From Clostridium sp. (lineage in GTDB: Bacteria; Bacillota; Clostridia; Clostridiales; Clostridiaceae), in the NCBI RefSeq assembly GCF_022773025.1, contig NZ_JALEZF010000064.1: a stretch of 64,000 bases of DNA; one strand, given 5' to 3'. The notes below the pieces were generated by a model. That model was given only the letters and a program-made list of their open reading frames with translations. It searched no databases and had not been told where the DNA came from. Positions 1 through 16,921 of the stretch are shown here, in pieces; position 1 is the stretch's first letter, and every line of letters starts with the position of its first letter. A program made the position numbers and the translations under genes.

Positions 1-1
1 A

Positions 2-502
2 ACTATTTCTGCATTATATAGTGAGGACATAAAAACAATAACTATGTGGCAGATGGGGTCTTTCTCTATGAAGGGCTGGTCATATCTTGCAATGGGAGTG
101 CCATTTTTTATAGTGGGCATATTAATAGTTTTAAGATATTGTAGAGAGATGGATGTTTTAAGTTTTGGAGAGGAGCAGGCAAAGTCTGTAGGAGTAGAAA
201 CCAAATCAGTAAAGAAAATATTATTTATGGCTATAGCACTTCTCACAGGTACTTCTGTGGCTTTGAGTGGAACAATAGGATTTATAGATCTTATAATACC
301 TCATTTAGTGAGAAAAATTTTTGGACCAAGGCATAAGGTTGTTATACCTATGTGCATAATATTTGGAGGAACCTTAATGGTTATAACAGATATGGTAGCT
401 AGAACTATAGCAGCACCATCAGAACTGCCAATAGGAGCAATAACAGCAATTATAGGAGCTCCGTTCTTTGCATACTTATATTTTAACAGGAGAAGTAGGT
501 GA
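2..502 (+). CDS. FecCD/BtuC-family ABC transporter permease (iron-siderophore or cobalamin type), 5' end outside the window
   Basis: The frame is open from base 2. The hydrophobic TM-rich C-terminus (…GAITAIIGAPFFAYLY…) is typical of FecCD permeases. The cognate ATPase gene starts 4 nt downstream. Confidence 0.8.
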   Translation, partial: TISALYSEDIKTITMWQMGSFSMKGWSYLAMGVPFFIVGILIVLRYCREMDVLSFGEEQAKSVGVETKSVKKILFMAIALLTGTSVALSGTIGFIDLIIPHLVRKIFGPRHKVVIPMCIIFGGTLMVITDMVARTIAAPSELPIGAITAIIGAPFFAYLYFNRRSR

Positions 503-506
503 TTAG

Positions 507-1262
507 GTGCTTGAGATAAACAATTTATATTGCGGATATGATGGAATTGATGTTGTTAAGGGAGTCTCCTTTAAAGTAGAACCTGGTCAAAACTTATCCA
601 TAGTAGGACCTAATGGCTGCGGAAAGACGACTTTGTTAAGAGCAATTGCAAATCTTATTGAGTATAAAGGTGAGATAAAAATAGATGGGGAAGAAGTAAA
701 TCATATAAAGAGAAGAGAATTAGCTAAAAAGGTAGCGCTTATGACTCAGACTTCAGAAATTTACTTTCCATATACAGTTTTTGAAACTGTGGCTTTAGGA
801 AGATATGCTCATCTTCAAGGAGCGTTTTCAACACTTTCCAAAGAAGATGAAGAGAAGGTTTTAAGTTGTCTTAATACCGTTGGTCTTTTAGACTCTAAAG
901 ACAGGATAATAAATGAATTGTCAGGGGGACAGCTTCAAAGAGTTTATCTTGCAAGAGCCTTTGCTCAAGATCCAGATATACTTTTATTGGATGAGCCAAC
1001 CAATCACTTAGATTTAAAGTGTCAGATAGAGATTTTAGTCTACGTAAACAAATGGATAAAGGAAAATAATAAGACTGTCATAGGAGTTCTTCATGATTTG
1101 AATTTGGTACAGATGTTTAGCGAAAGCATATTGATGCTCAAGGATGGGAAGATAGTTTCTCTTGGAGATGCAAAAGATGTTTTAGAAAAAGAAAAGTTAA
1201 AATCTGTGTACGGAATAGACATAAAGAATTTTATGCTTGAAGCACTAGGAAAATGGAAGTAG
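507..1262 (+). CDS. ABC transporter ATP-binding protein (FecE/BtuD-like)
   Basis: GTG start after AGGTGA. Walker A GPNGCGKTT, signature LSGGQLQR, Walker B LLLDEPTNHLD. Confidence 0.9.
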   Translation: MLEINNLYCGYDGIDVVKGVSFKVEPGQNLSIVGPNGCGKTTLLRAIANLIEYKGEIKIDGEEVNHIKRRELAKKVALMTQTSEIYFPYTVFETVALGRYAHLQGAFSTLSKEDEEKVLSCLNTVGLLDSKDRIINELSGGQLQRVYLARAFAQDPDILLLDEPTNHLDLKCQIEILVYVNKWIKENNKTVIGVLHDLNLVQMFSESILMLKDGKIVSLGDAKDVLEKEKLKSVYGIDIKNFMLEALGKWK

Positions 1263-1273
1263 GGTGATTAACC

Positions 1274-1921
1274 ATGGGTAAAAAATTTATAATGTCATAC
1301 AGTTGTGGAAAGGATAGTACCCTTGCACTTTATCGAATGATAAAGGAAGGAAATATTCCGGTAGGGCTTTTAGTAACTATAGACAAAGATAGGGGTCAGA
1401 GTTGGTTTCATGGAGTACCAAGACATATTCTTCAACAGGTATCAAAATCATTAAATATTCCTCTTGTACCTGTTGAATGTGAAGGAGACCAATATGAAAC
1501 TATTTTTGAGGAAGTACTAAAAAATCAAAAAGCTTTAGGTGCCACAGCTTGTGTATTTGGAGATATTGATATAGAGCACCATAGAACTTGGTGTACAGAT
1601 AGATGCGTGGCAGCAGAAATGGAAGCTATATTTCCGTTATGGCAGGAAGACAGAGAAAAATTAACCTATGAATTCATAGATAGTGGCTTCAAGACAGTTC
1701 TTAAAAATGTAAAGCTAGAATTTCTAGGTGAAGAATTTCTCGGAAAAATTCTAACAAGAGAACTTGTAAAGAAAATAAAAGAAACTGGCGCAGACCCATG
1801 TGGGGAAAATGGAGAGTACCACACATTTGTATTTGATGGTCCTATTTATAATGAACCAGTAGCTTTTGAAATTCAGCAAAACACTCTAACAGATAGCCAT
1901 GGATATTTAAACATAAAATAG
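1274..1921 (+). CDS. Dph6-related PP-loop ATP pyrophosphatase (DUF71/MJ0570 family)
   Basis: N-terminal PP-loop SYSCGKDS and C-terminal GENGEYHTFV motif typical of the diphthine-ammonia-ligase-like family. Lies between the ABC uptake genes and cobQ. Confidence 0.65.
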   Translation: MGKKFIMSYSCGKDSTLALYRMIKEGNIPVGLLVTIDKDRGQSWFHGVPRHILQQVSKSLNIPLVPVECEGDQYETIFEEVLKNQKALGATACVFGDIDIEHHRTWCTDRCVAAEMEAIFPLWQEDREKLTYEFIDSGFKTVLKNVKLEFLGEEFLGKILTRELVKKIKETGADPCGENGEYHTFVFDGPIYNEPVAFEIQQNTLTDSHGYLNIK

Positions 1922-1932
1922 GAGGGAAATAT

Positions 1933-3399
1933 ATGGATACTAAAAAGATAATGTTCCTTGGAACTGCCTCATCAGTAGGAAAGAGCACAGTTGCAACAGC
2001 CTTTTGTAGATATTTTAAAAGAAATGGCTATAAGGTAGCACCATTCAAGGCTCTAAACATATCACTAAATTCTTTTGTTACTAATGATGGTGATGAAATC
2101 GGAAGAGCTCAGGTTGTACAAGCTGAAGCCTGCGAAATAGAACCTAAGGAATATATGAATCCAATTCTCATGAAACCTAGTGCAGGCTATAAAACTCAAG
2201 TTATAGTTAGAGGGAAAGTACACTGTACTATGGATTCCTACAAGTACAAAGAACTGAATCCATATTTGAAAACTGTAGCAAAAGAAGCTTTCTGTGATAT
2301 ATCAAAGGACTATGATGTAATAGTCTTAGAAGGCTCTGGAAGTTGCGCCGAAATAAATTTAAAAGACACAGACATAGCAAATATGAAGATGGCAGAAATG
2401 GCAGAGGCACCTGTTATATTAGTAGCAGATATAAGCAAGGGGGGAGTATTTGCCTCTATAGTTGGTACTGTGATGCTTCTAGATGAAAAAGAAAGAAGCA
2501 GGATAAAGGGAGTAATAATAAATAAATTCAGAGGTAGAAAAGAATTATTTGAAAGTGCCATGAAGCAAATAGAAGATATAATACATATACCAGTTTTAGG
2601 AGTAATGCCTCATATTGAACTTGATATAGAAGAAGAAGATGGCGCCACTGAAAATATAAGAAATATAAAAGGACAAGGTGTAGATGTGGCTGTAATAAGG
2701 CTTCCACATATGTCGAACTTTACTGATTTCACTTCATTAGGAAAGATAAAAGATGTCAATGTGAGATATGTAGAGGATCCAAAGGATTTAAATGGAGCTC
2801 ATATGATAATAATCCCTGGAAGTAAAAACACCATTGATGATTTAAACTTCATAAAGAACGGTGGCTTTGAAAAAGCTTTAATTAAGGCAAAAGAAAAAGG
2901 TACATTAATCTTGGGTGTATGTGGCGGTTATCAAATTCTCGGAAAGAAGATAAGTGACCTAGAAGGAGTAGAGGGAGAATCAAGAATAGAAGAAGGACTT
3001 GGATTCTTAGATATGGAAACCACTTTCAATAAGATAAAAAATACTAGACAAATTAAAGGTATGGATTGTGATGGAAATGAAATAACAGGATATGAAATAC
3101 ATAATGGAGACAGTATTCCATTGTCAAAGCAAAATATATGGATAAAAGACAATAATGGAAAGGTTCTTGGAATGAAAAGCTCTGACGGAAAAGTACTTGG
3201 AACCTACATACATGGGCTTTTTGATGAAGGAGACTTTGCACTAAAGCTTATAAACCATCTAAAAGAAGATCTTAATCTAGATATAGAGGAAGAGATGAAA
3301 TACAAAGACTACAAGATGATGCAGTATGATAAGCTATGTGATGTTCTTGAAGAAAATATAAATATGGATCTTGTAAAGGAAATATTAGGAGAAAATTAA
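1933..3399 (+). CDS. cobQ: Cobyric acid synthase
   Basis: 488 aa. N-terminal P-loop GTASSVGKST (CobB/CobQ-like) and C-terminal GATase-1 domain with GVCGGYQILG and YIHG. Confidence 0.9.
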   Translation: MDTKKIMFLGTASSVGKSTVATAFCRYFKRNGYKVAPFKALNISLNSFVTNDGDEIGRAQVVQAEACEIEPKEYMNPILMKPSAGYKTQVIVRGKVHCTMDSYKYKELNPYLKTVAKEAFCDISKDYDVIVLEGSGSCAEINLKDTDIANMKMAEMAEAPVILVADISKGGVFASIVGTVMLLDEKERSRIKGVIINKFRGRKELFESAMKQIEDIIHIPVLGVMPHIELDIEEEDGATENIRNIKGQGVDVAVIRLPHMSNFTDFTSLGKIKDVNVRYVEDPKDLNGAHMIIIPGSKNTIDDLNFIKNGGFEKALIKAKEKGTLILGVCGGYQILGKKISDLEGVEGESRIEEGLGFLDMETTFNKIKNTRQIKGMDCDGNEITGYEIHNGDSIPLSKQNIWIKDNNGKVLGMKSSDGKVLGTYIHGLFDEGDFALKLINHLKEDLNLDIEEEMKYKDYKMMQYDKLCDVLEENINMDLVKEILGEN

Positions 3400-3468
3400 T
3401 AAGTATCATAATAAAAAACATGATATATTATAAGTAAATATAAATAAAAAATAAAAGAGGGGATATCT

Positions 3469-5499
3469 ATGAGAAAAAGCAAAGGTTTATACATAGGTAT
3501 AGCAGTAGTTTTGGTTGTGGCTATAGCAGTGGGAGCGTTCTTTTTCATGAAGAAAAAATCTTCCAAAAAGCCTGAAGACACTTTAAACGCTTATGTAGAA
3601 TTATTAAATTCAAAAGACTATGAAGCTATGTATGATTTAATTAGCAGTGATAGTAAGGACAATATTTCAAAAGATGATTTTGTAACAAGAAATAAAAATA
3701 TATATGAGGGAATAGAAGCACAAAACATAGAAGTGAAAGTGAGCGAAACTTCAAAAGATGGAGATGAGGCAACCATCACTTACACTACAGACATGAATAC
3801 AGTAGCAGGTGATATAAGCTTTCAAAATAGCATAAAAACTATAAAAGATAAGGATTCAAAAGAATATAAATTAGCCTGGAACTCTCAAGCTATATTTCCA
3901 GAGCTAGGAGATAGCGATAAAGTTAGAATTAGTACAAAGAAATCTACAAGAGGAAGCATACTAGATAGGAACAAAAGTGCATTAGCTAAGGATGGAGTTG
4001 CAGCAGAAGTTGGAATAGTTCCAGGTAAGCTGACTAACAAAGAAGAGTCAATAAAGACAATAGCAGAAATCTTAGAAATATCAACAGATGTTATAAATAA
4101 TAAGCTTGGGGCATCTTACGTAAAGGACGATATGTTTGTACCTATAAAAGTTATATCAGCAAATGATAGCAGAGTAACACAGCTTCTAAGCATATCAGGA
4201 ATCATGGTTAATGATAAACAAAGCAGAATTTACCCATTAGGGTCAATGGCTGCACACCTTACTGGATATGTTCAGAGTATAAATGCTGAAGAATTAGAAG
4301 CACGCAAGGGACAAAACTACAATCAAAATTCAGTTTTAGGAAAAGCAGGACTTGAAAAGTTATATGAAGAAAAGCTTAGAGGAATAGACGGTGCAGAAAT
4401 ATTTATCACTGACAAGTTAGGAAATAAGAAAGCTACTATAGCAACAAGAGAAGTTAAAAATGGTAGCGATGTGACAGTTACCATAGATAATTCTATGCAG
4501 GCACTTTTATATGGTCAATTAGAGAAGGACAAGGGGGCATCAGTTGCTATGAATCCTAATACAGGAGAAGTTTTAGCACTTGTAAGCACTCCATCCTATG
4601 ACCCTAATGATTTTGTTATGGGAATGTCTCAAGAAAAATGGGATTCATTAAATTCAGATCCAAATAAACCTCTATACAATAGATTCCAAAGCAATGCAGT
4701 TCCAGGTTCTTCATTTAAGCCTATAACTGCAGCAATAGGATTAGATACTAAAACTCTAGATCCAAATGCTACTAAAGCTATCTCAGGGCTTAAATGGCAA
4801 AAGGATAGCAGTTGGGGAGATTATTTTGTAACAAGAGTTTCTGATTATGGAAGCGATACAAATTTATTAAATGCTATGGTATATTCAGATAATATATACT
4901 TTGCTCAAACAGCTTTGGATATAGGAAAAGATAAATTTGCAGAAGAATTAAAGAAGCTTGGTTTTGATGAGGATATGCCTTTTGAATATGGAGTGTCCAC
5001 TTCAAAATTTGCATCAGATGGAACTATAAAGACAGATGTTCAGCTTGCCGATAGCGGATATGGACAAGGAGAAATTCTTATAAATCCACTACACTTATCA
5101 TCTATCTATACCATGTTTGTAAATGGTGGTAATATACTAAATCCATATCTTGAGTACAAAGCTTCTCCGGAAGCAAAGGTGTGGAAGGAAAACGCTGTTT
5201 CAAAAGAATCAGCAGATATAGTTTTAAATGCAATGATTCAGGTTGTTGAGAATCCAAAGGGTACAGGACATGAGGCCTATATAGATGGATTAAAAATAGC
5301 AGCCAAAACAGGAACAGCAGAAATAAAGGCAAGTCAAAGCGATACAACAGGCACAGAGCTTGGATGGTTCATAGCTATGACTACAAATAAGGGAAATAAA
5401 AATCTTTTAGTAGCAGTAATGGCAGAAGACGTTAAAGACAGAGGCGGCAGCCATTATGTAATACCAATGGTTAAAAAGGCTTTACAAACAGTGAAATAA
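3469..5499 (+). CDS. Class B penicillin-binding protein with MecA_N-like (NTF2) N-terminal domain and transpeptidase domain
   Basis: N-terminal membrane anchor. SxxK (SSFK), SxN (YSDN) and KTG (KTGT) transpeptidase motifs occur in the correct order. 676 aa, as in PBP2a/PBP3-type proteins. Confidence 0.85.
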   Translation: MRKSKGLYIGIAVVLVVAIAVGAFFFMKKKSSKKPEDTLNAYVELLNSKDYEAMYDLISSDSKDNISKDDFVTRNKNIYEGIEAQNIEVKVSETSKDGDEATITYTTDMNTVAGDISFQNSIKTIKDKDSKEYKLAWNSQAIFPELGDSDKVRISTKKSTRGSILDRNKSALAKDGVAAEVGIVPGKLTNKEESIKTIAEILEISTDVINNKLGASYVKDDMFVPIKVISANDSRVTQLLSISGIMVNDKQSRIYPLGSMAAHLTGYVQSINAEELEARKGQNYNQNSVLGKAGLEKLYEEKLRGIDGAEIFITDKLGNKKATIATREVKNGSDVTVTIDNSMQALLYGQLEKDKGASVAMNPNTGEVLALVSTPSYDPNDFVMGMSQEKWDSLNSDPNKPLYNRFQSNAVPGSSFKPITAAIGLDTKTLDPNATKAISGLKWQKDSSWGDYFVTRVSDYGSDTNLLNAMVYSDNIYFAQTALDIGKDKFAEELKKLGFDEDMPFEYGVSTSKFASDGTIKTDVQLADSGYGQGEILINPLHLSSIYTMFVNGGNILNPYLEYKASPEAKVWKENAVSKESADIVLNAMIQVVENPKGTGHEAYIDGLKIAAKTGTAEIKASQSDTTGTELGWFIAMTTNKGNKNLLVAVMAEDVKDRGGSHYVIPMVKKALQTVK

Positions 5500-5659
5500 T
5501 AGATATTAGAAGCAGATGGCAAGGATTAAAAAATTTAGTTCTGCTGTCTGCTCATTTTTATGCTAATTAATAAATCATTGCTAAAATAAATAATAAATAA
5601 AACTTAAGTAAAAACTAAATTATATTTTGGAGTGATAAAAAATTTATGGAGAAAGAGAA

Positions 5660-5962
5660 ATGGCAAAGAAAACTAGTGCAAACAATGATATGTTAAAAGA
5701 TGCAAAGAAGAAATCCTCAGCAAAAATATATTCTATGATATTGCATTTAGTCAATGAAGGAAGGCAGGATTTAGCTGAACTAGTTATGAAGGTGGACTAT
5801 TTATTGCAGTATACAAGTGCCTGTATAAAGGATAAGGACTATGATGAGGCGAGAGAAACTATGACAAAGGTTGAGATTAGATTACAAACTTTAAAGGATG
5901 AAGGTGTAGATATTGAGCATCTAGAGTATTTACATGACGGTATTAAGGATAAAATAAAATAA
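5660..5962 (+). CDS. Hypothetical small helical protein (100 aa)
   Basis: ORF preceded by a GGAGAAAGAG RBS. I recognise no family. No terminator lies between it and the downstream ORF-free region. Confidence 0.45.
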   Translation: MAKKTSANNDMLKDAKKKSSAKIYSMILHLVNEGRQDLAELVMKVDYLLQYTSACIKDKDYDEARETMTKVEIRLQTLKDEGVDIEHLEYLHDGIKDKIK

Positions 5963-6024
5963 ATGTCTAAATGTTTGTATGGAAAAATATTGAAAATAAT
6001 TATGCGGTGAGTTAGAATGAAGGC

Positions 6025-6666
6025 AATGAAAGTTCATGAAGCGCTTTATTTAATATATATAAAAATCATTACTTCAATAGGTAAAAGGCTTAAAGCTCAA
6101 ATTTAATCCTAGGAATGACTACAATTAAGATAGTAGGTGAGAGAGAAACAATAAAATCTTGTGAAGTGGTAGAAAAAATAATTTTGGATAAGGTATGCTA
6201 AAATTAGCATGCTGCAAATAGACCAGAGTTCATAAGGAGTTTTATTGAAACTATTATGTTTTGTCAGGGAAATATACCTATAGAGAGATGTTATTTTAAA
6301 CAAAGGTATATGAGAATCAGTTTTGGTTTTAATGTGAAGCTCTAGGTATTTTAGAATGGACTATAAAAAATTTTATAGCTAAGTGTATTGCCGTTAGGTA
6401 ATGAGAGCACCACATATGAAGGCTGAAGTCAATGACACGTGAAGGCATGACCATGGCTTATAGTCGTGGCTGCCTCAGCATTATTGCGTAAAAAGTCATA
6501 TAAGATTCAGATAAACTAAGGCTTAAATATCTTTGTAAAATCAACTGCAGCACCGTGAAGCTTTGGGCAGTTGATAAAGAAATCATAGGGAAGTGAGAGC
6601 CTATAGAAAATATTCTGTACAACAAATAAAAGCCTCTAAATTTGTTTAGGGGCTTTTATTTGTTGT
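6025..6666 (+). ncRNA. Candidate large structured non-coding RNA of unknown class (the boundaries are inferred)
   Basis: Sigma-A-like promoter TTGAAA-17-TAGAAT at 5990-6018. About 640 nt with no credible ORF. A local GC-rich island at 6395-6480 sits in an AT-rich genome. The hexamer GTGAAG occurs 4 times. Two similar hairpins present AC(C)GUGAA loops (6428-6451 and 6541-6574). The region ends in a 22-bp hairpin. Confidence 0.35.
6619..6666. terminator. Long perfect hairpin; bidirectional intrinsic terminator
   Basis: ACAACAAATAAAAGCCTCTAAA-TTTG-TTTAGGGGCTTTTATTTGTTGT gives 22 bp with one G-U pair. The GC core is flanked by complementary A and T tracts. Confidence 0.75.
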
Positions 6667-6791
6667 TTGAGAATTCATCTGCTCTTCTTGAATTTGAAGG
6701 GAAATATATTTAATTCTTAAAGAATATGAATAAATCTTTGAGATATATGCACCCTATTTTAGAAGGTTAAAATGGAGGTGCATATTTTATT

Positions 6792-7514
6792 ATGAAAAAA
6801 ACTATGATAAGGATTTATGCTTTTATTCTTGCAATAACTATAATTGCTGGACTTTTAGCTGGAATAACTAATGTGAGGATAGCAAAGGCATCAGAAAATC
6901 AAAAGGTAGCATATCTGACCTTTGATGATGGTCCAAGTAAAAATACTGGAAAGGTACTTGATATACTAAAAAGTGAAGGTATTCACGCTACATTTTTTGT
7001 GATAAAACCAATATATGATGAAGATGTGAAATTTATGAAGAGAGCTTTTGATGAGGGGAATGCCATAGGAAATCATACCTATGAACATGACTTCGATAAG
7101 GTTTATGCTTCAGAAAAAGTTTTCTGGAGTAATTTCAATAAGGAGCAGGAATTGATAGAATCTATAACAGGAAGACCTAGCTGCCTTTTTAGATTTCCAG
7201 GAGGATCAAAAAATAGTGTGGTCACCAAAAGAAATGGTAAACAGTTTAATATAAAGCTTGGCAAGGAATTAGAGGAGAAAGGTATACATTATTTTAATTG
7301 GGATGTAGACTCTGGAGATGGAATGACAGACCATGCTTCATCAGCATCTATCTATAACAATGTGATGAAGCAGATAAAAGGCAGGGATAAAGCTATAATT
7401 TTGATGCATGACTCTAAAGAAAAGAAAACCACAATAGAAGCCCTCCCAAGAATAATAAAATCTTTAAAAGAGCAGGGCTACACCTTTGACACTTTAGAAA
7501 ATTATAATAAGTAG
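6792..7514 (+). CDS. Polysaccharide deacetylase (NodB homology domain), membrane-anchored or secreted
   Basis: N-terminal hydrophobic anchor. NodB motifs LTFDDGPS and HTYEH. C-terminal ILMHD. Confidence 0.85.
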   Translation: MKKTMIRIYAFILAITIIAGLLAGITNVRIAKASENQKVAYLTFDDGPSKNTGKVLDILKSEGIHATFFVIKPIYDEDVKFMKRAFDEGNAIGNHTYEHDFDKVYASEKVFWSNFNKEQELIESITGRPSCLFRFPGGSKNSVVTKRNGKQFNIKLGKELEEKGIHYFNWDVDSGDGMTDHASSASIYNNVMKQIKGRDKAIILMHDSKEKKTTIEALPRIIKSLKEQGYTFDTLENYNK

Positions 7515-7599
7515 ATTACTATTCAAATTTATGGAAAATGGTATAATATAATTATAGCTTAAAATAATATTCTAAGGTTAGGATAAGGAGGGTATATAA

Positions 7600-8685
7600 A
7601 TGTTTTTAATGCCTAAGTTTAGAGAACCAGACTTCGAGAGATCAGACCTAAAGAAAGCTCCAAATGTAAAATTTGAAGAAGTAAAGGTGAAGGGGATTGC
7701 TCCAGATAATTATCATGGAACGTCTATGTATCCAGAGTACTACAAAATAAATGGTTCATGGACTTTAATAAAAGAAAGCAGAATGGACTGCGTTCCTGTG
7801 ATACTTGAAAATGGAGAGGTTGAAGCAAAGGAATTTAGACGATTAGAACCTTATGACAAGGTAATAGTAGGGCGTACAGAAGATGGAAGTGAGGGGATAT
7901 ATCTTCATGCTTCAGGATTTTATGACGAGGATAGTACAAATGATGTCTTTGGATTTAGAACAGGAAGATCCAGAGAAACTCCTTACGCAAAGGATTATAA
8001 AAAGCTATGTGATTTACTAAAATATGAAAAAGATAATGGTTATATAGTGTGGGTTCTAGGTCCAGCAGCAGTATTTGATGATAAATCAAGAGAAGCTATG
8101 TCAGAAATCATAGACAAAGGATATGCTCATGCTGTATTTGGAGGCAATGCAGTTGCTACCCACGATTTAGAAGGAGCATTATTCCACACCGCTTTAGGTC
8201 AGGATATATCATCGCTAGAAAATAAAAAGAATGGACATTATCATCATTTAGACACCATAAATTTAGTTAATAGGGCAGGCGGAATAGAGGAGGCCATAAG
8301 AGAATATGAAATAGATAACGGAGTTATATATTCATGCGTTAAAAATAATATTCCTTATGTTCTTACAGGATCAATAAGGGATGATGGACCGCTACTTCCT
8401 GTAAAATCCAACATGGCAGAAGCTCAAGATGCAATGAGGTATCATACAAGAAAGGCTACTACAGTTATATGCCTTGCAACACAGCTTCATACCATAGCTA
8501 CAGGTAATGTTACACCTTCCTATACAGTGGTAAATGGTGAGGTAAGACCTGTATTTATATATGCAGTTGATATTTCTGAGTTTGTATTAAATAAGCTCAG
8601 AGATAGAGGGACTTTAGAGGTAACAACTATAGTTTCAAATATTCACGATTTTTTATTTAAAGTTAAGACATTATTAAATCAATAA
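7600..8685 (+). CDS. TIGR00300 / LOR-SDH-domain family protein (possible archaeal-type ornithine cyclodeaminase-like enzyme)
   Basis: 361 aa with FGGNAVATHD and GSIRDDGPLLPV segments, which I associate with this family. The assignment is from memory only. Confidence 0.45.
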   Translation: MFLMPKFREPDFERSDLKKAPNVKFEEVKVKGIAPDNYHGTSMYPEYYKINGSWTLIKESRMDCVPVILENGEVEAKEFRRLEPYDKVIVGRTEDGSEGIYLHASGFYDEDSTNDVFGFRTGRSRETPYAKDYKKLCDLLKYEKDNGYIVWVLGPAAVFDDKSREAMSEIIDKGYAHAVFGGNAVATHDLEGALFHTALGQDISSLENKKNGHYHHLDTINLVNRAGGIEEAIREYEIDNGVIYSCVKNNIPYVLTGSIRDDGPLLPVKSNMAEAQDAMRYHTRKATTVICLATQLHTIATGNVTPSYTVVNGEVRPVFIYAVDISEFVLNKLRDRGTLEVTTIVSNIHDFLFKVKTLLNQ

Positions 8686-8703
8686 TACAAGGGGGACTAA
8701 AAA

Positions 8704-9870
8704 ATGAGAAATTTCCATTACTCAATACCAACGGAAATATACTTTGGAAAAGGACAAATATCAAAACTGTCAGAGGCAGTAAAAAAATACGGTAACAAAG
8801 TATTGATGGTTTATGGCGGTGGAAGTATAAAGAAGATGGGATTATACGATAAGGTTTTAGCTCTTCTAAAGGATGCTGACATAGAAGTAGTGGAACTTGG
8901 AGGAGTAGATCCAAATCCAAGAGTTACTTCTGTAGAGGAAGGTGCTAAGCTTTGTAGAGAAAATAATATAGAGGTTATTTTAGCTGTAGGTGGAGGAAGT
9001 ACCATAGACTGTGCAAAGGCTATAGGAGCAGCTTGTTACTACGATGGAGAACCATGGGATATAGTGGCTAATACTTCAAAGATAACAAAGGTTTTACCTG
9101 TAATATCAGTTCTTACATTATCAGCTACTGGTTCAGAAATGGACCCATTTGCAGTTATTTCAAACATGGATACAAATGAAAAGCTTGGAATGGCAAACGA
9201 AGGAATGAGACCAAAGGCATCTATATTAGATCCGGAATACACATACTCTGTGCCAAAGAATCAGACAGCAGCGGGAACAGCAGATATAATGAGTCACATA
9301 TTTGAGGAATATTTCAGTGCTGAGAGAAATGCTTATGTACAAGATAGGATGGCAGAAGCTTTATTGAAGACTTGTATAAAGTATGGAGATATAGCTGTAA
9401 AAGACCCTAACAATTATGAGGCAAGAGCAAATCTTATGTGGGCATCAAGCCTTGCTATAAATGGAATATTAGACTGCGGAAAGAACAATGCATGGAGTGT
9501 CCATCCTATGGAGCATGAATTAAGTGCATTTTATGATATAACCCATGGTGTAGGTCTTGCAATACTTACTCCTCATTGGATGAGATATGTTTTAAATGAG
9601 GATAACGTAGACAAATTTGTAGAGTACGGAGTAAACGTATGGGATATAGATAAGAATTTAGATAGATATGATATAGCAAATAAAGCTATAGATATGACAA
9701 AGAAGTTCTTCACAGAGAACCTAGAAATCCCAGAAACTCTTAGAGAAGTTGGCATAGGAGAAGAAAAGCTTGAGCTTATGGCAAAACAGGCCACTAGGTT
9801 TGGAGCTATAGGAAGCTTTGAATTATTAGAAGCTAAAGATGTTTTAAATATATATAAGGCAGCTTTATAA
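8704..9870 (+). CDS. Iron-containing (group III) alcohol dehydrogenase, butanol-dehydrogenase/YqhD-like
   Basis: GGGS(T/V)IDxAK nucleotide-binding motif (VGGGSTIDCAKAI). Metal-binding His cluster (HxxxH region HPMEHELS, ITHGVG). 388 aa. Confidence 0.9.
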   Translation: MRNFHYSIPTEIYFGKGQISKLSEAVKKYGNKVLMVYGGGSIKKMGLYDKVLALLKDADIEVVELGGVDPNPRVTSVEEGAKLCRENNIEVILAVGGGSTIDCAKAIGAACYYDGEPWDIVANTSKITKVLPVISVLTLSATGSEMDPFAVISNMDTNEKLGMANEGMRPKASILDPEYTYSVPKNQTAAGTADIMSHIFEEYFSAERNAYVQDRMAEALLKTCIKYGDIAVKDPNNYEARANLMWASSLAINGILDCGKNNAWSVHPMEHELSAFYDITHGVGLAILTPHWMRYVLNEDNVDKFVEYGVNVWDIDKNLDRYDIANKAIDMTKKFFTENLEIPETLREVGIGEEKLELMAKQATRFGAIGSFELLEAKDVLNIYKAAL

Positions 9871-9938
9871 ACTGAATTCTTAGCTTCATCTAGATTTTTA
9901 AATTTATAAGACAAATTGAATTTAAGGAAGGGATAGGA

Positions 9939-11141
9939 TTGAAAAATGGAAGATGGATTCTCCTGATTTCTATTTTCTTTCTATTACTTTTAGGATTGTG
10001 CATCAGCCAGAAGGATAAGCTTTCTTTCTGGCTGTCATCTTTAAAGGAGAAGAGAGAAATAGAAAATCAAATTAACTCTATGAACTTAGATGAAAAAGTT
10101 GGTCAGCTTGTTATAAGCGGATTCAAAGGAGAAACTGTCAGCGAAGAATTAAAGGAACTTATCGAAAAATCTCATATAGGTGGAGTTATACTTTTCAGCT
10201 CTAACATAAAGGATTCAAATCAGCTTATAGAACTCACGAATTCCATAAAAGATATAAATATCATAAGTGACGGGATTCCTATATTTATATCAGTGGATCA
10301 AGAGGGAGGTAGGGTTTCTAGACTACCAAAGGACATTGAAAAATTTCCAAGTGCAGCGCATATAGGAGATCACGGAGATGAAAATTACAGTTATAAGGTT
10401 GGAAATGCATTAGGACAAGTGATAAAAACTTTTGGATTCAATTTAAATTTTGCCCCAGTATTAGATGTGGCAAGTAATCCAGAAAATAAAGTCATAGGAG
10501 ATAGAGCTTTTGGAGATAATGAAGATCTAGTGTGCCGAATGGGTTTACAGTTTATGAATGGACTAAGAAGTAGCAATGTAATTTCAGTAGTAAAACATTT
10601 CCCAGGACATGGTGACACAAAAGAAGATTCTCATTATGAGCTTCCATACTTAAATCATCATAAGGAAAGGCTTGATGCCATTGAGTTTGCGCCATTTAAG
10701 AAGGCTATAGAGAATGGAACTGATGGCATAATGGTAAGCCATATTGTTTTGAAAAACATAGATAATAAAAATCCAGCTACCATGTCAAAAGCTGTGGTCA
10801 CAGATATATTACGTAAAGAATTCAACTATGAGGGAGTTATATTCACAGATGATATAAATATGGGGGCTATAGCCAATAATTATCCTTTGAGGGATGCTGT
10901 TATAAAAACTATAGATGCAGGAGTTGACGTCATAGTAAGTTCTAAGGGAGTAGAAGATACAAAACTTATCATAGAAATCATAAAAGATGCCCTTAAGAAG
11001 GGTGATATTTCTGAAGAAAGAATCAAGGAAAGTCTTAATAGAATTTTAAAACTAAAATATAAATATAGTCTTGAAGATAAAAAGCTTTCCAATATAAATC
11101 TAGATAAGATTAATAGATTTATAAATGAAAATATAAAATAA
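9939..11141 (+). CDS. Glycoside hydrolase family 3 N-terminal domain protein (beta-N-acetylhexosaminidase, NagZ-like) with N-terminal anchor
   Basis: KHFPGHGDTKEDSH and VDQEGGRV motifs of GH3. Signal/anchor helix present. A TTG start is implied, so the start is uncertain. Confidence 0.8.
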   Translation: MKNGRWILLISIFFLLLLGLCISQKDKLSFWLSSLKEKREIENQINSMNLDEKVGQLVISGFKGETVSEELKELIEKSHIGGVILFSSNIKDSNQLIELTNSIKDINIISDGIPIFISVDQEGGRVSRLPKDIEKFPSAAHIGDHGDENYSYKVGNALGQVIKTFGFNLNFAPVLDVASNPENKVIGDRAFGDNEDLVCRMGLQFMNGLRSSNVISVVKHFPGHGDTKEDSHYELPYLNHHKERLDAIEFAPFKKAIENGTDGIMVSHIVLKNIDNKNPATMSKAVVTDILRKEFNYEGVIFTDDINMGAIANNYPLRDAVIKTIDAGVDVIVSSKGVEDTKLIIEIIKDALKKGDISEERIKESLNRILKLKYKYSLEDKKLSNINLDKINRFINENIK

Positions 11142-11181
11142 GAAAATCCATGAGGACTTCAAATCTTCATGGATTTTTCTT
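11142..11181. terminator. Bidirectional intrinsic terminator
   Basis: AAAATCCATGA...TCATGGATTTT forms an 11-bp stem flanked by A and T runs between convergent genes. Confidence 0.75.
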
Positions 11182-11212
11182 TAACATTATTTAATTTTGT
11201 GATTTTAAAATA

Positions 11213-11446
11213 TTAAGAAAGCCATAAGATTAAAAGTACGATTAAAGAAAAGATTAGATATATCACGCCTTCTATTTTAGTTAAAATTAAGGCATGATGG
11301 TTAGGCTCAGCATAATTATAAGAGTTAAATCTGTAGGAAAAGTCTATAAAGCCTTCAGTGTGAAATATAGCATAATAGGCGGGGATTCCAAGAGCTATGA
11401 GCACTAAAGAGCCAAATATTTTTCCCATTATCAAAATACTACTCAT
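11213..11446 (-). CDS. Small hypothetical membrane protein (77 aa)
   Basis: The internal ATG at 11446 is preceded by GAGAGGAG. Two predicted TM helices. The longer ORF-track start at 11533 has no RBS. Confidence 0.45.
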   Translation of the reverse strand: MSSILIMGKIFGSLVLIALGIPAYYAIFHTEGFIDFSYRFNSYNYAEPNHHALILTKIEGVIYLIFSLIVLLILWLS

Positions 11447-11566
11447 AAAAGACTCCTCTCTATAATAATATTTCCTTAATATTATTATACCATAAGGATT
11501 AGAAAAATGTTCTCCAAATAAATATAGTGCCACAAAAGCCCTTTCACTTTTGTGGCACTATATTAT

Positions 11567-12199
11567 TTATCTATTTCCGCCGAATAGCTTTGCTTTATAG
11601 TATTTGTCAGCACCGTATATTGCAGCAAGAGGATTATGACATAGTACTCTGTCTTTCACAGCAAAAACTGTTATTGGTGCATCAGAATGTTTTATAAATA
11701 GTGAATCATGACCTACACATAGTCCTAATAATATGTTTAAATCTGTGTGTGCTTCGTTTAGAAGGATTGCTTGGCCTATTGGATTACACATTGGTTCATA
11801 AGTTCCAGGTCTAACTTGTTCGGCATCAGTTATATTTATAAAAGATTTTGGAATGCTGCCATTCTTACAAACTATAGATTCAACTTCAAAGCCGTGATGA
11901 CGAAGTATGGAACAGAAAGTTTGAGCCTCTTTTATAAGTCCTATACAGAAAGCAACGCCTATTTTCTTATAACCACATTTATGAGCGAAATCTATTATCT
12001 CTTCTACCCTTGTCTTTTGGCAGTACCCTTCACTTTCCACCAATGCAGAATTGTGGGCTATATTTAGAGTTTCCTCATCCTTATAGTATTCTTTTATGTT
12101 ATTCTGTTCTTTTTCTAATCTGCATGGGCAGTTTAAAGGAGCATTTTCAATATCTCCATTTTTACAGTTATTTTGTTTACAAGAATCACAAGTATACAT
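11567..12199 (-). CDS. DUF1847 domain-containing Cys-rich (metal-binding) protein
   Basis: N-terminal CxxC..C..CPC cluster followed by a conserved C-terminal domain ending …CVGHD…CHNP. Family recalled from similar clostridial and archaeal proteins. Confidence 0.55.
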   Translation of the reverse strand: MYTCDSCKQNNCKNGDIENAPLNCPCRLEKEQNNIKEYYKDEETLNIAHNSALVESEGYCQKTRVEEIIDFAHKCGYKKIGVAFCIGLIKEAQTFCSILRHHGFEVESIVCKNGSIPKSFINITDAEQVRPGTYEPMCNPIGQAILLNEAHTDLNILLGLCVGHDSLFIKHSDAPITVFAVKDRVLCHNPLAAIYGADKYYKAKLFGGNR

Positions 12200-12284
12200 A
12201 AATTTGTCCCCCTTATGTTATAAAATTTGTCTTAACAGAAGATTGTAGGTGGCCTATTTGAAATTCAAATTTAGAAAATAAATT

Positions 12285-13115
12285 TTACTCTAAAATGAAT
12301 TTGTCTAAGGCTTTTGCTATACCACAACAACAATTAGTATCGGTTATATAATCAGCCATTGCTTTTATATCTTCAGATGCATTTCCCATTGCTATTCCGA
12401 GACCAGCACTTTGAATCATGGAAGAATCATTTTCGCTGTCCCCAAAGCATATGATTTCTTTTGGATCTATATTTAACGATTGGGCTAAGGCGTTAATGCC
12501 GCTAAATTTGCATATTCCCTTTGGGAGAATCTCAAGGTTAGTAGGACCGGAACTAGAAACCTCCAGATTACCAAAAGCAAGGATATCACGTCTTATATTC
12601 TCTATCATAGATAGGTCTTCTTTAAATAGAAATAGTGCCTTTAAAAGTTTTCCTGGAAATTTTTCAAAGGCTGTGCTTATATCATCTACAACATGAAATT
12701 TGATTTTTAAATCATCAGATATGGCAGTCTTATTAGTTTTTACGTGAGGATCATTTTCATCAAATGGAGTTATAGTAATAAGAGTGTCTGAGGTATTAAA
12801 AAGAAAATCTACATCATATTTTTTTATAATGGAACAGATATTATTAAACTGTTCTTTGTTTAAGGCAGCATTATATAGAGGCTTGTCCTCATCGTAACCT
12901 CTCACATAACCTCCGTTAGATGAAATTATATATGGAGCAATTCCTAGATCATGAGCATAGAATTTGGCTGAATTATATATTCTGCCGGTAGAGAATGCTA
13001 TCTTTATTCCATTATTATAAGCTTTTTTTATAGCTTCAGCATCACCAAAGGAAATTTCCTTATCATCATTTAATAGTGTGCCATCTAAGTCAGTGCAAAT
13101 TAGTTTATATTTCAT
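12285..13115 (-). CDS. Cof-type HAD-IIB family hydrolase (sugar phosphatase)
   Basis: DLDGTLL motif I, STGR motif II, GDSENDSSM motif IV. Confidence 0.85.
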   Translation of the reverse strand: MKYKLICTDLDGTLLNDDKEISFGDAEAIKKAYNNGIKIAFSTGRIYNSAKFYAHDLGIAPYIISSNGGYVRGYDEDKPLYNAALNKEQFNNICSIIKKYDVDFLFNTSDTLITITPFDENDPHVKTNKTAISDDLKIKFHVVDDISTAFEKFPGKLLKALFLFKEDLSMIENIRRDILAFGNLEVSSSGPTNLEILPKGICKFSGINALAQSLNIDPKEIICFGDSENDSSMIQSAGLGIAMGNASEDIKAMADYITDTNCCCGIAKALDKFILE

Positions 13116-13261
13116 TGTTAACCTCCTTTTGATTTATAAGAAAATTGTATATCAAATTATAAAATAATTCCATAAAATTCAGTATATAAGAGAATAAATA
13201 TGAAGAAGGAATGAATAATTTTGAAAATACTAAATAATGGAACTTAGGAGAATAGAAATTA

Positions 13262-13276
13262 ATATAATGATTATAG
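13262..13276. promoter_or_regulatory. PerR/Fur-type 7-1-7 box upstream of catalase
   Basis: ATATAATGATTATAG contains the perfect palindrome TATAAT-G-ATTATA and matches the B. subtilis PerR box TTATAATNATTATAA at 13 of 15 positions. It lies 23 nt upstream of the catalase ATG. Confidence 0.55.
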
Positions 13277-13298
13277 CTATAAAGCATTGGAGGAAATT

Positions 13299-14756
13299 AT
13301 GAGGGAGTATGAAAATAAAAATGTTTTAACAACCAATGAAGGGGCTCCTATAATGAACAATCAAAACTCACTAACTGTTGGAGATAGAGGGCCAGTTTTG
13401 CTTCAGGATATACAGCTTATAGAAAAGTTTGCTCAATTTGATAGGGAGAGGATTCCAGAAAGAGTTGTACATGCAAAAGGTGCTGGGGCTCATGGATATT
13501 TTCAAGTGTATAAACCTATGAAAAACTATACCATAGCGAGATTTTTACAAAATCCAGATGAAAAAACTCCTGTATTTGTGAGATTTTCCACAGTTATAGG
13601 TTCAAAAGGTTCCGCAGATACAGCAAGAGATCCTAGAGGTTTTGCAGTGAAGTTTTACACAAAAGATGGAAATTATGATTTGGCTGGAAATGATATTCCT
13701 GTGTTTTTTATAAGGGATGGTATGAAGTTTCCTGATTTGATTCATGCTCTTAAACCTGCACCAGATACTAATATTATTGATCAAAATAGAGTTTGGGACT
13801 TCTTTTCTAGTATGCCAGAAACTACACATATGATAACTTGGGTATATTCTGATAGGGGAACTATAAAGAGTTATAGAAGAATTGAAGGCTTTGGAGTTAA
13901 TACTTTTGTGTGGGTAAATGATAAGGGAGAGAGAAGATTCGTAAAATATCATTGGAAGCCAGCTTTAGGTGTTGAAACTATAGATAGAAAAGAAGCTGAA
14001 TTTTTGGCTGGAGCTGATCCAGATATTGCAACAAGAGATTTATATGATACTCTTAAAAAAGGTGAAACCGTAGAGTATGAGCTTCTAGTACAGCTTATGA
14101 GCACTAAAGAGGATTGCACGCTAGACTTCGATCCATTAGATGCAACAAAGTTGTGGCCAGAAGACAAATTCCCATTGATGAAGGTTGGAAGGCTTATATT
14201 GGATAGAGCACCTGAAAATTTCTTTGCTGAAGTAGAGCAAGTTGCTTTTTGTCCATCTAATCTTGTACCAGGAATAGAGATGTCTGCAGATAAGATGCTA
14301 CAAGGAAGACTTTTTGCATATAGGGATACTCAAAGATATAGAGTTGGTACAAATTTTGCACAGCTTCCAATAAATAGACCTAAGTGTCCAGTTAATAATA
14401 ATATTCAAGATGGTTCTATGCGGTATTTTGCAAAATCAGGTACGGTGAATTATGATCCAAATACCTTAGATGATGGAAATCCAAAGGAAGCAAAGGGTAT
14501 GATTATGCCGACAGAATATGTGTCAGGAAAAATTGAAAGAAAAACTATACCTAATACAGAGGATTTTAAACAGGCTGGAGATAGATATCGAGCTATGACG
14601 GATATAGAAAAAGAACATTTAGTAGACAATATAGCAAATGATTTGTGGCAGGCTAATGAAGAAATACAAATAAGAGCTATAGGAAATTTTACTAAGGCCT
14701 GTCCAGAATTCGGGAAAAGAGTAGCGAAGGCTCTAAAGATAGCGGATTATGAATAA
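13299..14756 (+). CDS. katA: Monofunctional heme catalase
   Basis: RERIPERVVHAKGAGAHGYF distal-His motif and RLFAYRDTQRYR proximal-Tyr motif. I prefer the ATG at 13299 (GGAGG RBS) to the TTG at 13287. Confidence 0.93.
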   Translation: MREYENKNVLTTNEGAPIMNNQNSLTVGDRGPVLLQDIQLIEKFAQFDRERIPERVVHAKGAGAHGYFQVYKPMKNYTIARFLQNPDEKTPVFVRFSTVIGSKGSADTARDPRGFAVKFYTKDGNYDLAGNDIPVFFIRDGMKFPDLIHALKPAPDTNIIDQNRVWDFFSSMPETTHMITWVYSDRGTIKSYRRIEGFGVNTFVWVNDKGERRFVKYHWKPALGVETIDRKEAEFLAGADPDIATRDLYDTLKKGETVEYELLVQLMSTKEDCTLDFDPLDATKLWPEDKFPLMKVGRLILDRAPENFFAEVEQVAFCPSNLVPGIEMSADKMLQGRLFAYRDTQRYRVGTNFAQLPINRPKCPVNNNIQDGSMRYFAKSGTVNYDPNTLDDGNPKEAKGMIMPTEYVSGKIERKTIPNTEDFKQAGDRYRAMTDIEKEHLVDNIANDLWQANEEIQIRAIGNFTKACPEFGKRVAKALKIADYE

Positions 14757-14767
14757 ATTAAAAGTGT

Positions 14768-14806
14768 ATGCTGTAAAGTGTGAAAATCATTTTACAGCAT
14801 TTTTTA
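14768..14806 (+). terminator. Intrinsic terminator after catalase
   Basis: ATGCTGTAAA...TTTACAGCAT forms a 10-bp stem followed by TTTTTA. Confidence 0.75.
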
Positions 14807-14932
14807 CAAATTAATTGAAGCATTGATAAAATGTGTTTTGAATAAATAGGGCACTTTAACACAAAATAAAATTGACCACGAAAACATTAAAGTATTAAAA
14901 ATATAATAATATACAGACTAGGAGGAAGAAAA

Positions 14933-15112
14933 ATGACAAATAAAGAGCTTTCTTATTTAGAAGACTGCTTAGGAGCAGAACAAGAGCTTCAAGCAAAATG
15001 CTTAGACTATGCAAATAGAGTTCAAGATACTGAGATGAAACAGTTATTAACTAGTTTGGCTTCATGTCATCAAAAACATTTTGGAACATTATTTACAGAA
15101 TTGAATAAGTAG
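14933..15112 (+). CDS. Small Coat-F-like / ferritin-like spore coat family protein (59 aa, below the ORF-track cutoff)
   Basis: AGGAGGAAG RBS 5 nt upstream of the ATG. Helical sequence …ELSYLEDCLGAEQEL…CHQKHF… pairs with the downstream Coat-F-like gene. Confidence 0.5.
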   Translation: MTNKELSYLEDCLGAEQELQAKCLDYANRVQDTEMKQLLTSLASCHQKHFGTLFTELNK

Positions 15113-15124
15113 GAGGATGGAAGA

Positions 15125-15391
15125 ATGAATAAGACAATGACAGATAAAGAATTATTAACTGATGTATTAACTTCTGAAAAATCCTTAGTATCCTTATATA
15201 ATCATGCTATCCAAGAAGCTGCTACAGAGTGCGTTCACTCAAACTTTGAGCAAGTATTTAATGAAGCTGTAAAAGATCAATATAAGGTATTTAAAGCTAT
15301 GGAACAAAAAGGATGGTATAAAGTAGAGCAGGCCCAAGAGCAGGCTGTAGAAAAAGCAAAAAATAAATTTACAAATAATATGAATGCCTAA
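15125..15391 (+). CDS. Coat F domain (spore coat protein F-like) protein
   Basis: DKELLTDVLTSEKSLVSLYNHAIQEA… is typical of the Coat_F family. GGAGGATGG RBS. Confidence 0.6.
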   Translation: MNKTMTDKELLTDVLTSEKSLVSLYNHAIQEAATECVHSNFEQVFNEAVKDQYKVFKAMEQKGWYKVEQAQEQAVEKAKNKFTNNMNA

Positions 15392-15442
15392 AAAGATTAA
15401 AATAAAATATGGTAAAGTAAGGATTTCTTAAAATGCAAAATG

Positions 15443-15528
15443 AAAAGGAGCCAACATGAGGTGTAATTTCAAGTGTTAGATATAGTATCCCTAACACTTG
15501 AGATTCACATCAAATGGCTCCTTTTTAT
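15443..15528. terminator. Long imperfect hairpin; bidirectional terminator between the Coat-F-like gene and queT
   Basis: Outer stem AAAAGGAGCCA/TGGCTCCTTTT (11 bp) encloses a further roughly 20-bp imperfect helix. A and T tracts lie on both sides. Confidence 0.7.
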
Positions 15529-16052: not shown

Positions 16053-16244
16053 AGATATAAATCCTCCTAATATATAGATTAATTAAGCCAAAATATTTGA
16101 AAATTAAGCTATAAAAATCTTAAAAAATAATTATTTAAGCCTTATGCAAATTAAAATCTAATGGGCCCCAAACTTATAATATACATAAGCTTAAATAGGA
16201 GAATTACATGCGACACAAAGAAACAAAGTTTATAAATACTTTGC

Positions 16245-16276
16245 AAAAAATAAAAAGTCTGTCTCAAAGACAGACC
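16245..16276 (-). terminator. Riboswitch expression-platform terminator (minus strand)
   Basis: On the minus strand, GGTCTGTCT-TTG-AGACAGAC is followed by TTTTTATTTTTT, about 70 nt downstream of the preQ1 aptamer. Confidence 0.65.
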
Positions 16277-16539: not shown

Positions 16540-16550
16540 GGAGAAAACTT

Positions 16551-16919: not shown

Positions 16920-16921
16920 TT

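What the first reader, a model, noticed from the sequence alone, without database searches (positions are those of the whole stretch)
5963..6791. 820-bp ORF-free region with GC-rich island, fourfold GUGAAG motif and duplicated hairpin modules: candidate large structured RNA
No credible ORF lies between the 100-aa gene and the deacetylase gene; the 64-aa antisense ORF 6109..6303 is low-complexity junk. A near-consensus promoter (TTGAAA-17-TAGAAT, 5990-6018) faces into the region, and a 22-bp hairpin terminator (6619-6666) closes it, implying a transcript of about 640 nt. The segment 6395-6480 is close to 50% GC in a roughly 30% GC genome. The hexamer GTGAAG occurs at 6161, 6334, 6439 and 6555, whereas fewer than 0.1 occurrences would be expected by chance at this base composition. 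Two of these copies sit in similar hairpins. The first is GTCA…UG.C-[ACGUGAA]-G.CA…TGAC (6428-6451). The second is TCAACTGC-AGC-[ACCGUGAA]-GCU…GCAGTTGA (6541-6574). Further stable local helices lie at 6191-6214, 6272-6311 and 6361-6378. I could not match it to any riboswitch or housekeeping RNA that I know: there is no T-box, B12 box, THI box, SRP, RNase P or tmRNA signature. It could belong to a large ornate class (OLE, ROOL, GOLLD or raiA type) or be something not yet described.
Basis: seen in the sequence. Interest (0 to 1): 0.6.

Follow-up and report, generated by a model that had tools for sequence, protein, structure and literature searches.

The report
Undescribed large folded Clostridium RNA
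This gene-free stretch most likely encodes a folded non-coding RNA of about 600 bases that matches no catalogued RNA family and was found in only two related Clostridium species; its job is unknown.

Summary
The region is real and most likely a stand-alone gene for a folded non-coding RNA of about 600-645 nt on the + strand. One independent homologue was found, in Clostridium cadaveris. It keeps both promoter hexamers and the terminator. The body is 85% identical, against 67% at four-fold degenerate sites. Pairs predicted from the window alone tolerate the homologue's substitutions more often than chance (17 of 28 kept, null 37%, P about 0.003; none of 26 control segments as low). RNA-library contigs from two studies lie between promoter and terminator, a weak hint of a discrete transcript. 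It is not OLE or ROOL (tested with positive controls), and no Rfam family matches. Limits: only two sequences; the C. cadaveris copy folds no better than shuffles; strand and abundance are unmeasured. Best mechanism (inferred): an RNA acting in trans through its fold, as a protein-binding scaffold like OLE or ROOL. It is a new candidate family with unproven function.

The parts
5990..6018 (+). sigma-A-type promoter-like site, TTGAAA-17-TAGAAT; start of transcription inferred near 6025
   Evidence: both hexamers kept in C. cadaveris with a changed spacer
6025..6670 (+). candidate non-coding RNA, about 600-645 nt (ends inferred from promoter and terminator)
   Evidence: 85% identity to the homologue over 6025-6615; folding z -3.0 on +, -0.7 on -; RNA-run contigs at 6037-6598, 6044-6598, 6116-6632, 6255-6407
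6069..6596 (+). predicted closing helix joining the 5' and 3' ends (6069-6075 with 6590-6596)
   Evidence: 7 pairs possible in both species, invariant, so no covariation; predicted only
6077..6281 (+). 5' domain: closed by 6077-6083/6275-6281, with a long irregular helix 6149-6165/6229-6247 and hairpin 6192-6213
   Evidence: hairpin 6192-6213 has six changed pairs, four kept (one compensatory), two broken
6300..6536 (+). long-range interrupted helix enclosing the 3' domain (6300-6309/6527-6536, 6311-6314/6522-6525)
   Evidence: 4 of 10 pairs changed, all four kept: A-U to G-C, A-U to G-U, G-C to G-U, G-U to G-C; probability 0.67 in the window, 0.99 in C. cadaveris
6334..6509 (+). GC-richer branched 3' domain (helices 6339-6343/6404-6408, 6361-6378, 6386-6403, 6443-6447/6471-6475, 6451-6469, 6478-6487)
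   Evidence: compensatory changes at 6362/6377 and 6479/6486, two broken pairs at 6453-6454
6540..6575 (+). hairpin carrying the conserved CGUGAAG loop segment
   Evidence: outer stem probability 0.98 in the window, 0.93 in C. cadaveris
6619..6666 (+). 22-bp hairpin, intrinsic-terminator-like
   Evidence: core pairs probability 1.0 when folded with the body; homologue flagged as terminator-like on both strands
5660..5962 (+). upstream gene, 100-aa all-helical protein of no Pfam or NCBIfam family; no terminator between it and the RNA promoter
   Evidence: present in 38 of 147 family genomes
6723..6765 (+). conserved block after the terminator; possibly the deacetylase gene's own promoter (GAATA-17-CACCCTA resembles a sporulation-sigma site; consensus recalled, not from a call)
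   Evidence: one difference in 43 nt between the two species
6792..7514 (+). downstream polysaccharide deacetylase gene (PF01522)
   Evidence: its orthologue in G001 has no such RNA upstream

Best explanation
A stand-alone gene for a stable, multi-domain non-coding RNA of about 600-645 nt. It is transcribed on the + strand from the sigma-A-type promoter at 5990-6018 and ends at the hairpin at 6619-6666. It folds into a closing helix, a 5' domain, a long interrupted helix carrying a branched GC-richer domain, and a 3' hairpin. It most likely works in trans through its three-dimensional fold, as a scaffold that binds protein partners or copies of itself in the manner of OLE and ROOL, and not as an mRNA, an antisense RNA or a riboswitch. 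SHOWN: no coding capacity, conservation above synonymous sites, conserved promoter and terminator, retention of predicted pairs in one homologue. HINTED: a discrete transcript. INFERRED: strand, exact ends, abundance, and the scaffold mechanism. I put a real structured RNA at about 0.8, stand-alone action in trans at about 0.6, and the scaffold or self-assembly mechanism itself at about 0.35.
For: Body 84.8% identical to the homologue against 66.6% at 11,669 four-fold sites of 108 orthologues; its indels include lengths 1, 2 and 3 and substitutions show no clear codon phase (25/34/22). Promoter hexamers and terminator core kept. Pair-retention test with the structure taken from the window alone (pairs p>0.5): 17 of 28 changed pairs kept, null 37%, P 0.002-0.004; reciprocal test 13 of 20-21, P below 0.001; minus strand P 0.2; 0 of 26 control segments at P<=0.01 and 2 of 26 at P<=0.05. 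Folding z -3.0 without the terminator. All 14 DNA runs that hold it have 97-100% of the region's words, three RNA runs hold 54-61%; their contigs lie at 6037-6598, 6044-6598 (study P6) and 6116-6632 (study P8), with no listed loose ends there. No long complementarity to the rest of the genome (best blastn-short E 0.09). The terminator is not out-competed by the body.
Against: Only two independent sequences, so no proper covariation test. The C. cadaveris copy folds no better than shuffles (z -0.28), and none of its 12 sliding windows on + falls below z -1. With pairs at p>0.7 the window-derived test is not significant (9 of 18, P 0.10-0.13). Intergenic DNA is generally well kept between these species: median 80%, this region ranks 10th of 30. 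The RNA evidence is contigs only, from runs chosen for holding the stretch; strand and level are unknown; X15 has depth in 29 of 30 bins, so DNA carry-over is possible; in X18 another listed piece is deeper. Not found in the third species of the genus (G001, 95% complete) or in any other genome searched, unlike the widespread OLE. No partner, phenotype or self-pairing loop was shown.
Confidence: 0.6

Rival explanations
1. A long structured 3' extension of the 100-aa gene's mRNA, or an RNA cut from it, forming a local RNA-protein pair with that small helical protein.
For: No terminator between the stop at 5962 and the promoter at 5990. Both gene and RNA are missing from G001. The protein has a basic N-terminus and aligns over its whole length with ~85-aa ribosomal chains at Z 8-9.6 (these are probably bS20, my inference from chain label and size).
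Against: The gene occurs in 38 of 147 family genomes, and 29 loci from other genera have no similar sequence downstream. The structural match is at the level of generic helical bundles (best Z 10.5 to an unrelated protein; no Foldseek hit at E<=0.001). RNA contigs start at 6037, 6044 and 6116 and do not run into the gene; in X15 a separate contig covers 5924. A separate promoter is conserved.
Confidence: 0.14
2. A long 5' leader (riboswitch or attenuator) that controls read-through of the 6619-6666 terminator into the deacetylase gene.
For: Promoter, structured region, terminator, then a same-strand gene is the layout of an attenuator. The segment 6272-6281 has three conserved alternative partners, so switching is possible. 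AGGCUU at 6086 and 6519 can pair with the terminator's 5' arm.
Against: Best duplex of the 5' arm with the body is -9.7 kcal/mol against -28 for the terminator, whose core pairs have probability 1.0. No Rfam riboswitch. The deacetylase orthologue in G001 lacks the region. A conserved block after the terminator may be the gene's own promoter (inference).
Confidence: 0.1
3. A decayed or domesticated remnant of a catalytic or mobile RNA (ORF-less group II or group I intron, second RNase P-like RNA) that still folds.
For: Size and multi-domain layout fit an ORF-less intron (established knowledge); narrow, patchy distribution fits an insertion.
Against: No intron or RNase P model matches at E<=10 in either species. 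Single copy in the genome. It is not inside a gene and has its own promoter and terminator. The genome has an intact RNase P RNA elsewhere. No phage or plasmid homologue.
Confidence: 0.07
4. Ordinary intergenic DNA or an unrecognisably decayed protein gene, transcribed incidentally, with no RNA function.
For: Other intergenic regions are about as conserved; the homologue's folding z is -0.28; no homologue beyond two species.
Against: 590 nt kept at 85% with only small indels while synonymous sites are at 67%; pair retention above controls; no codon phase; no protein similarity within the genome; RNA contigs bounded by promoter and terminator.
Confidence: 0.09

Closest known systems
ROOL RNA (Rfam RF03087), including the Ligilactobacillus salivarius long RNA
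   Same: Similar size (model 574 positions), stand-alone, multi-domain with a closing helix; GUGAA/UGAAG segments occur in both. The L. salivarius RNA also looked species-specific when first described (PMC5643018, abstract).
   Different: No match to the Rfam model or to a profile of 22 phage ROOL-type loci that does detect the L. salivarius RNA at E 3e-9. No tRNA gene in the 64-kb window, whereas ROOL is often near tRNA islands in phages (PMC12286853, passages).
OLE RNA (Rfam RF01071)
   Same: About 600 nt, chromosomal, in Clostridia; found in 24 of 40 relatives.
   Different: No match to the model or to a profile of 23 clostridial OLE RNAs; the proteins encoded just downstream of OLE have no tblastn hit in this genome. 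OLE is GC-rich and widespread; this RNA is 32% GC and was found in two species.
GOLLD RNA (Rfam RF02032)
   Same: Large, multi-domain RNA of unknown function.
   Different: No match (no positive control run); GOLLD often exceeds 800 nt and is phage- and tRNA-associated (PMC12286853, passages).
raiA motif RNA (RF03072), 6S RNA, RNase P RNA, tmRNA
   Same: Structured stand-alone RNAs of Clostridia.
   Different: Each has its own gene elsewhere in this genome and none matches this region.

Membership tests
OLE RNA | Match to covariance model RF01071 | tested here: not met
   No match in the genome at E<=1 or in the region at E<=10; the model rings in 24 of 40 relatives
OLE RNA | Similarity to clostridial OLE sequences | tested here: not met
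   nhmmer profile of 23 OLE RNAs: best -6.7 bits, E 4.7
OLE RNA | oapA partner gene directly downstream | tested here: not met
   Downstream gene is a polysaccharide deacetylase; 18 proteins from just downstream of OLE (taken as OapA, my inference) have no tblastn hit in the genome
ROOL RNA | Match to covariance model RF03087 | tested here: not met
   None at E<=1 in the genome or E<=10 in either copy; positive controls ring (15 of 20 loci)
ROOL RNA | Similarity to a diverse ROOL profile | tested here: not met
   Profile of 22 loci (13 confirmed by cmscan, 9 by profile similarity only): both copies score at the level of 60 shuffles, held-out L. salivarius ROOL E 3e-9
ROOL RNA | Phage or prophage location, often near tRNA genes | tested here: not met
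   Neighbours are housekeeping-type genes; 0 tRNA genes in the window; no homologue in phage records
GOLLD RNA | Match to the conserved 3' domain model RF02032 | tested here: inconclusive
   No match, but only 90 of 806 candidates were scored and no genome with a known GOLLD served as control
raiA, 6S, RNase P, tmRNA | Being the genome's copy of that RNA | tested here: not met
   Copies found on contigs C30, C33, C72, C100; no match here
Large ornate bacterial ncRNAs (as a kind) | Hundreds of nucleotides, non-coding, own promoter and terminator | tested here: met
Large ornate bacterial ncRNAs (as a kind) | Extensive secondary structure proven by covariation | tested here: inconclusive
   Two sequences only; pair retention above chance at p>0.5, not at p>0.7 for the window-derived structure; the count on the joint structure is circular
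Large ornate bacterial ncRNAs (as a kind) | High abundance as a discrete transcript | tested here: inconclusive
   Contigs of RNA runs bounded by promoter and terminator; contigs cannot give level, strand or ends
Large ornate bacterial ncRNAs (as a kind) | Self-assembly or protein scaffold | not testable with these tools
   Needs mass photometry, cryo-EM or pull-down
Known riboswitch or T-box leader | Rfam aptamer match and a competing antiterminator | tested here: not met

The most novel reading that the evidence does not exclude
A new class of large ornate RNA, unrelated to OLE, ROOL, GOLLD and raiA, made abundantly in a Clostridium lineage that lacks OLE, folding by itself into a defined multi-domain, possibly self-assembling particle and filling an OLE-like stress or sporulation role, perhaps with the neighbouring small helical protein as partner.
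Probability: 0.25. Interest if true: 0.75.

Novelty: new variant of a known kind. Interest (0 to 1): 0.5.

Why it matters
[quoted passage not shown] A further unrelated example of about 600 nt in a culturable Clostridium (C. cadaveris carries the homologue) would give a new fold to solve and a clean single-copy knockout target. All three species of this genus lack a detectable OLE RNA, which makes a functional stand-in a testable idea. The narrow range limits general importance.

Tried and rejected
Homologue hunting that led nowhere beyond the two species. blastn over 60 relatives, 380 family genomes (102 with a match at E<=0.01, only G000 and G002 full-length, the rest pieces of 85 nt or less) and 300 class genomes. 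Covariance models of the 3' domain (2 of 147 family, 1 of 141 order, 1 of 150 phylum) and of the 5' domain (2 of 146, where only 15 of several hundred candidates per genome were scored). Some genomes could not be scored in most of these searches, so this is 'not found', not 'absent'. Phage and plasmid records. One metagenome motif scan: 2 of 42 hits homologous, both near-identical to the two known copies. A family-wide search for ROOL could not be obtained, so ROOL references came from phage contigs and a plasmid. Ideas rejected: fourfold GUGAAG as a repeated module; a hidden small protein (the shared 29-aa frame 6256-6345 differs at 6 residues and has no well-spaced ribosome-binding site, read by eye); an RNase P P4-like pairing of 6029-6037 with 6453-6461 (motif recalled; the 3' strand is changed in the homologue); group I and group II intron motifs (recalled; not in the right order, no Rfam support); linkage to the 100-aa gene in other genera. 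The 100-aa protein's fold searches gave only generic helical matches. Runs X19 and X20 hold small shares (0.15, 0.10); X20's single 153-nt contig is not counted as evidence. A decayed-gene test against public protein sets was not run; only the own genome was searched. Literature: eight searches listed nothing on this RNA; supplements of large RNA-motif surveys were not read and could list it.

Full report
OBSERVATION. The 829 nt between the 100-aa gene (5660-5962) and the polysaccharide deacetylase gene (6792-7514, PF01522) hold no credible ORF. The promoter-like site at 5990-6018 and the 22-bp hairpin at 6619-6666 are there, as are the GC-rich patch (48.8%) and the four GTGAAG copies. The chance expectation for that hexamer is 0.3, not below 0.1; four copies were not reached in 2000 shuffles, but some GC-containing hexamer reached four copies in 102 of 2000, and only two of the four copies survive in the homologue. 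The first of the two 'duplicated' hairpins (6428-6451) has pair probability 0.0 and does not fold in the homologue; the second (6541-6574) is well supported. Rfam gives nothing at the gathering score and, at E<=10, 27 weak rows, nearly all on the terminator hairpin; the homologue's body gives 3 chance-level rows.

HOMOLOGUES. One independent homologue was found: the record L037, titled Clostridium cadaveris JCM 1392. The copy in handle G002 scores identically and is counted as the same sequence; metagenome contig L101 differs from it at one base and L098 is a near-identical part of the window's own copy. Gene order is the same on both sides. The third species of the genus (G001, 95% complete) has orthologues of the flanking penicillin-binding-protein and deacetylase genes at other places, without the RNA beside either. 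blastn and two covariance models found nothing else in 146-380 family genomes, 141 order, 300 class and 150 phylum genomes, nor in phage, plasmid or viral collections. These searches score few candidates per genome and start from two similar sequences, so distant members can be missed.

IS IT UNDER SELECTION? Between the two species, four-fold degenerate sites are 66.6% identical (11,669 sites, 108 orthologues), coding DNA 86.4%, and the RNA body 84.8%. That is well above synonymous sites, but other syntenic intergenic regions have a median of 80% and this one ranks 10th of 30, so conservation alone is not decisive. Both promoter hexamers are unchanged while the spacer differs, and the terminator core is kept. 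Indels of 1, 2 and 3 nt and the lack of codon phase argue against a protein gene.

IS IT STRUCTURED? Without the terminator the + strand folds at z -3.0 and the - strand at -0.7; the C. cadaveris copy gives only -0.28. To avoid circularity I took pairs predicted from one sequence alone and asked whether the other's substitutions keep them. With pairs at p>0.5 from the window, 16-17 of 27-28 changed pairs stay canonical against 36-37% in the null (P 0.002-0.004); the reciprocal gives 13 of 20-21 (P below 0.001). At p>0.7 the window-derived test is not significant (9 of 18) while the reciprocal is (5 of 6-7, P 0.008-0.03). The minus strand gives P 0.2, and of 26 control segments of 590 nt (27 tried, one not aligned; mostly coding) none reached P<=0.01 and two P<=0.05. 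The strongest single feature is the long-range helix 6300-6309/6527-6536: four of ten pairs changed and all four are kept. The working model is a closing helix (6069-6075/6590-6596), a 5' domain (6077-6281), the long interrupted helix enclosing a branched GC-richer domain, and a 3' hairpin. Some predicted pairs break (11 of 27-28), and two sequences cannot prove covariation.

IS IT TRANSCRIBED? Of 24 runs listed, 14 DNA runs hold 97-100% of the region's words (all flagged as possible sources of this DNA), three RNA runs hold 54-61%, one 'RNA?, probably DNA' run 60%, two RNA runs 10-15% and four none. Laid on window 1-20000, the RNA-run contigs cover 6037-6598 (X15, depth 17.5, against 3.9-6.7 for its other listed pieces), 6044-6598 (X17, same study), 6116-6632 (X18, another study; a piece elsewhere is deeper) and 6255-6407 (X20). 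None runs into a neighbouring gene. This fits a discrete RNA between promoter and terminator, but the runs were picked for holding the stretch, DNA may be present, and contigs give no strand, end or level. It is a weak hint.

HOW IT MOST LIKELY WORKS. It does not code, shows no long complementarity to other parts of the genome, and cannot readily disrupt its terminator. The deacetylase orthologue exists without it in G001, and a conserved block at 6723-6765 may be that gene's own promoter (resemblance to a sporulation-sigma site is recalled; the passages I saw in PMC7438776 did not print the consensus). The 100-aa gene exists in 38 of 147 family genomes, without similar downstream sequence in 29 loci of other genera. 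What remains is an RNA that acts in trans through its fold. By analogy with OLE and ROOL, which form RNA-only dimers and cages (PMC12286853, passages), I favour a scaffold for protein partners or for self-assembly. That step is inference (about 0.35). Rivals: 3' extension or partner RNA of the 100-aa protein (0.14; its fold matches ~85-aa ribosomal chains only at generic-bundle level), attenuator of the deacetylase (0.10), remnant of a catalytic RNA (0.07), no function (0.09).

COMPARISON WITH KNOWN FAMILIES. It works, at most, like the large ornate RNAs; it is not shown to be a member of any. OLE: model and a 23-sequence profile negative, no partner gene, while 24 of 40 relatives have OLE and none of the three species of this genus does. 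ROOL: model negative with positive controls, and a 22-locus profile that detects the held-out L. salivarius RNA scores both copies like shuffles. GOLLD: negative without a positive control. raiA, 6S, RNase P and tmRNA lie elsewhere in the genome. The L. salivarius RNA is a caution: it was reported as species-specific (PMC5643018, abstract and one results section read) and matches ROOL, so a narrow range by BLAST does not prove a new class; here, though, the family models themselves fail.

NOVELTY AND VERDICT. Eight literature searches (listings only, apart from the three papers named) showed nothing on this RNA; supplements of motif surveys were not read. Verdict: a probable new large structured RNA of a known general kind, restricted so far to two Clostridium species, function unproven. 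Interest 0.5.

Noticed in passing
window 5660-5962: Uncharacterised 100-aa all-helical protein (pLDDT 93) in 38 of 147 family genomes, no Pfam or NCBIfam family; full-length alignment to ~85-aa ribosomal chains (probably bS20) at Z 8-9.6, not above generic helical bundles; the genome's own bS20 is on contig C104.
   Followed up: partly
window 6272-6281: The invariant segment ATATACCTAT has three invariant complementary partners (6077-6083, 6304-6311, 6343-6349), which could allow alternative folds, a pseudoknot or inter-molecular pairing.
   Followed up: no
window 6723-6765: 43-nt block with one difference between the two species just upstream of the deacetylase gene; GAATA-17-CACCCTA may be a sporulation-sigma promoter (consensus recalled).
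   Followed up: partly
window about 23367-23850, 16052-16550 and 31929-32253: Other long intergenic regions kept at 95%, 87% and 89% between the two species, with no ATG ORF above 56 aa; may hold regulatory RNAs or small genes.
   Followed up: no
window 62506-62612: TPP riboswitch above the Rfam gathering score, upstream of the ORF at 62684.
   Followed up: no
G000, G001, G002 (whole genomes): No OLE RNA detected in any of the three species of this genus, although 24 of 40 relatives have it.
   Followed up: partly
L012, L014, L016, L023, within 1 kb downstream of the 100-aa homologue: In one genus the gene is followed by several dispersed copies of a 120-200-nt non-coding repeat, unrelated to this RNA.
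   Followed up: no
L454, L456, L461, L475: Phage-contig ROOL RNAs only just above the gathering score (106-108 bits), apparently a divergent ROOL subgroup.
   Followed up: no
window 6359 and 6421: The RNA-run contigs differ from the window by G>A at 6359 (all four runs) and 6421 (three runs); probably strain differences.
   Followed up: no
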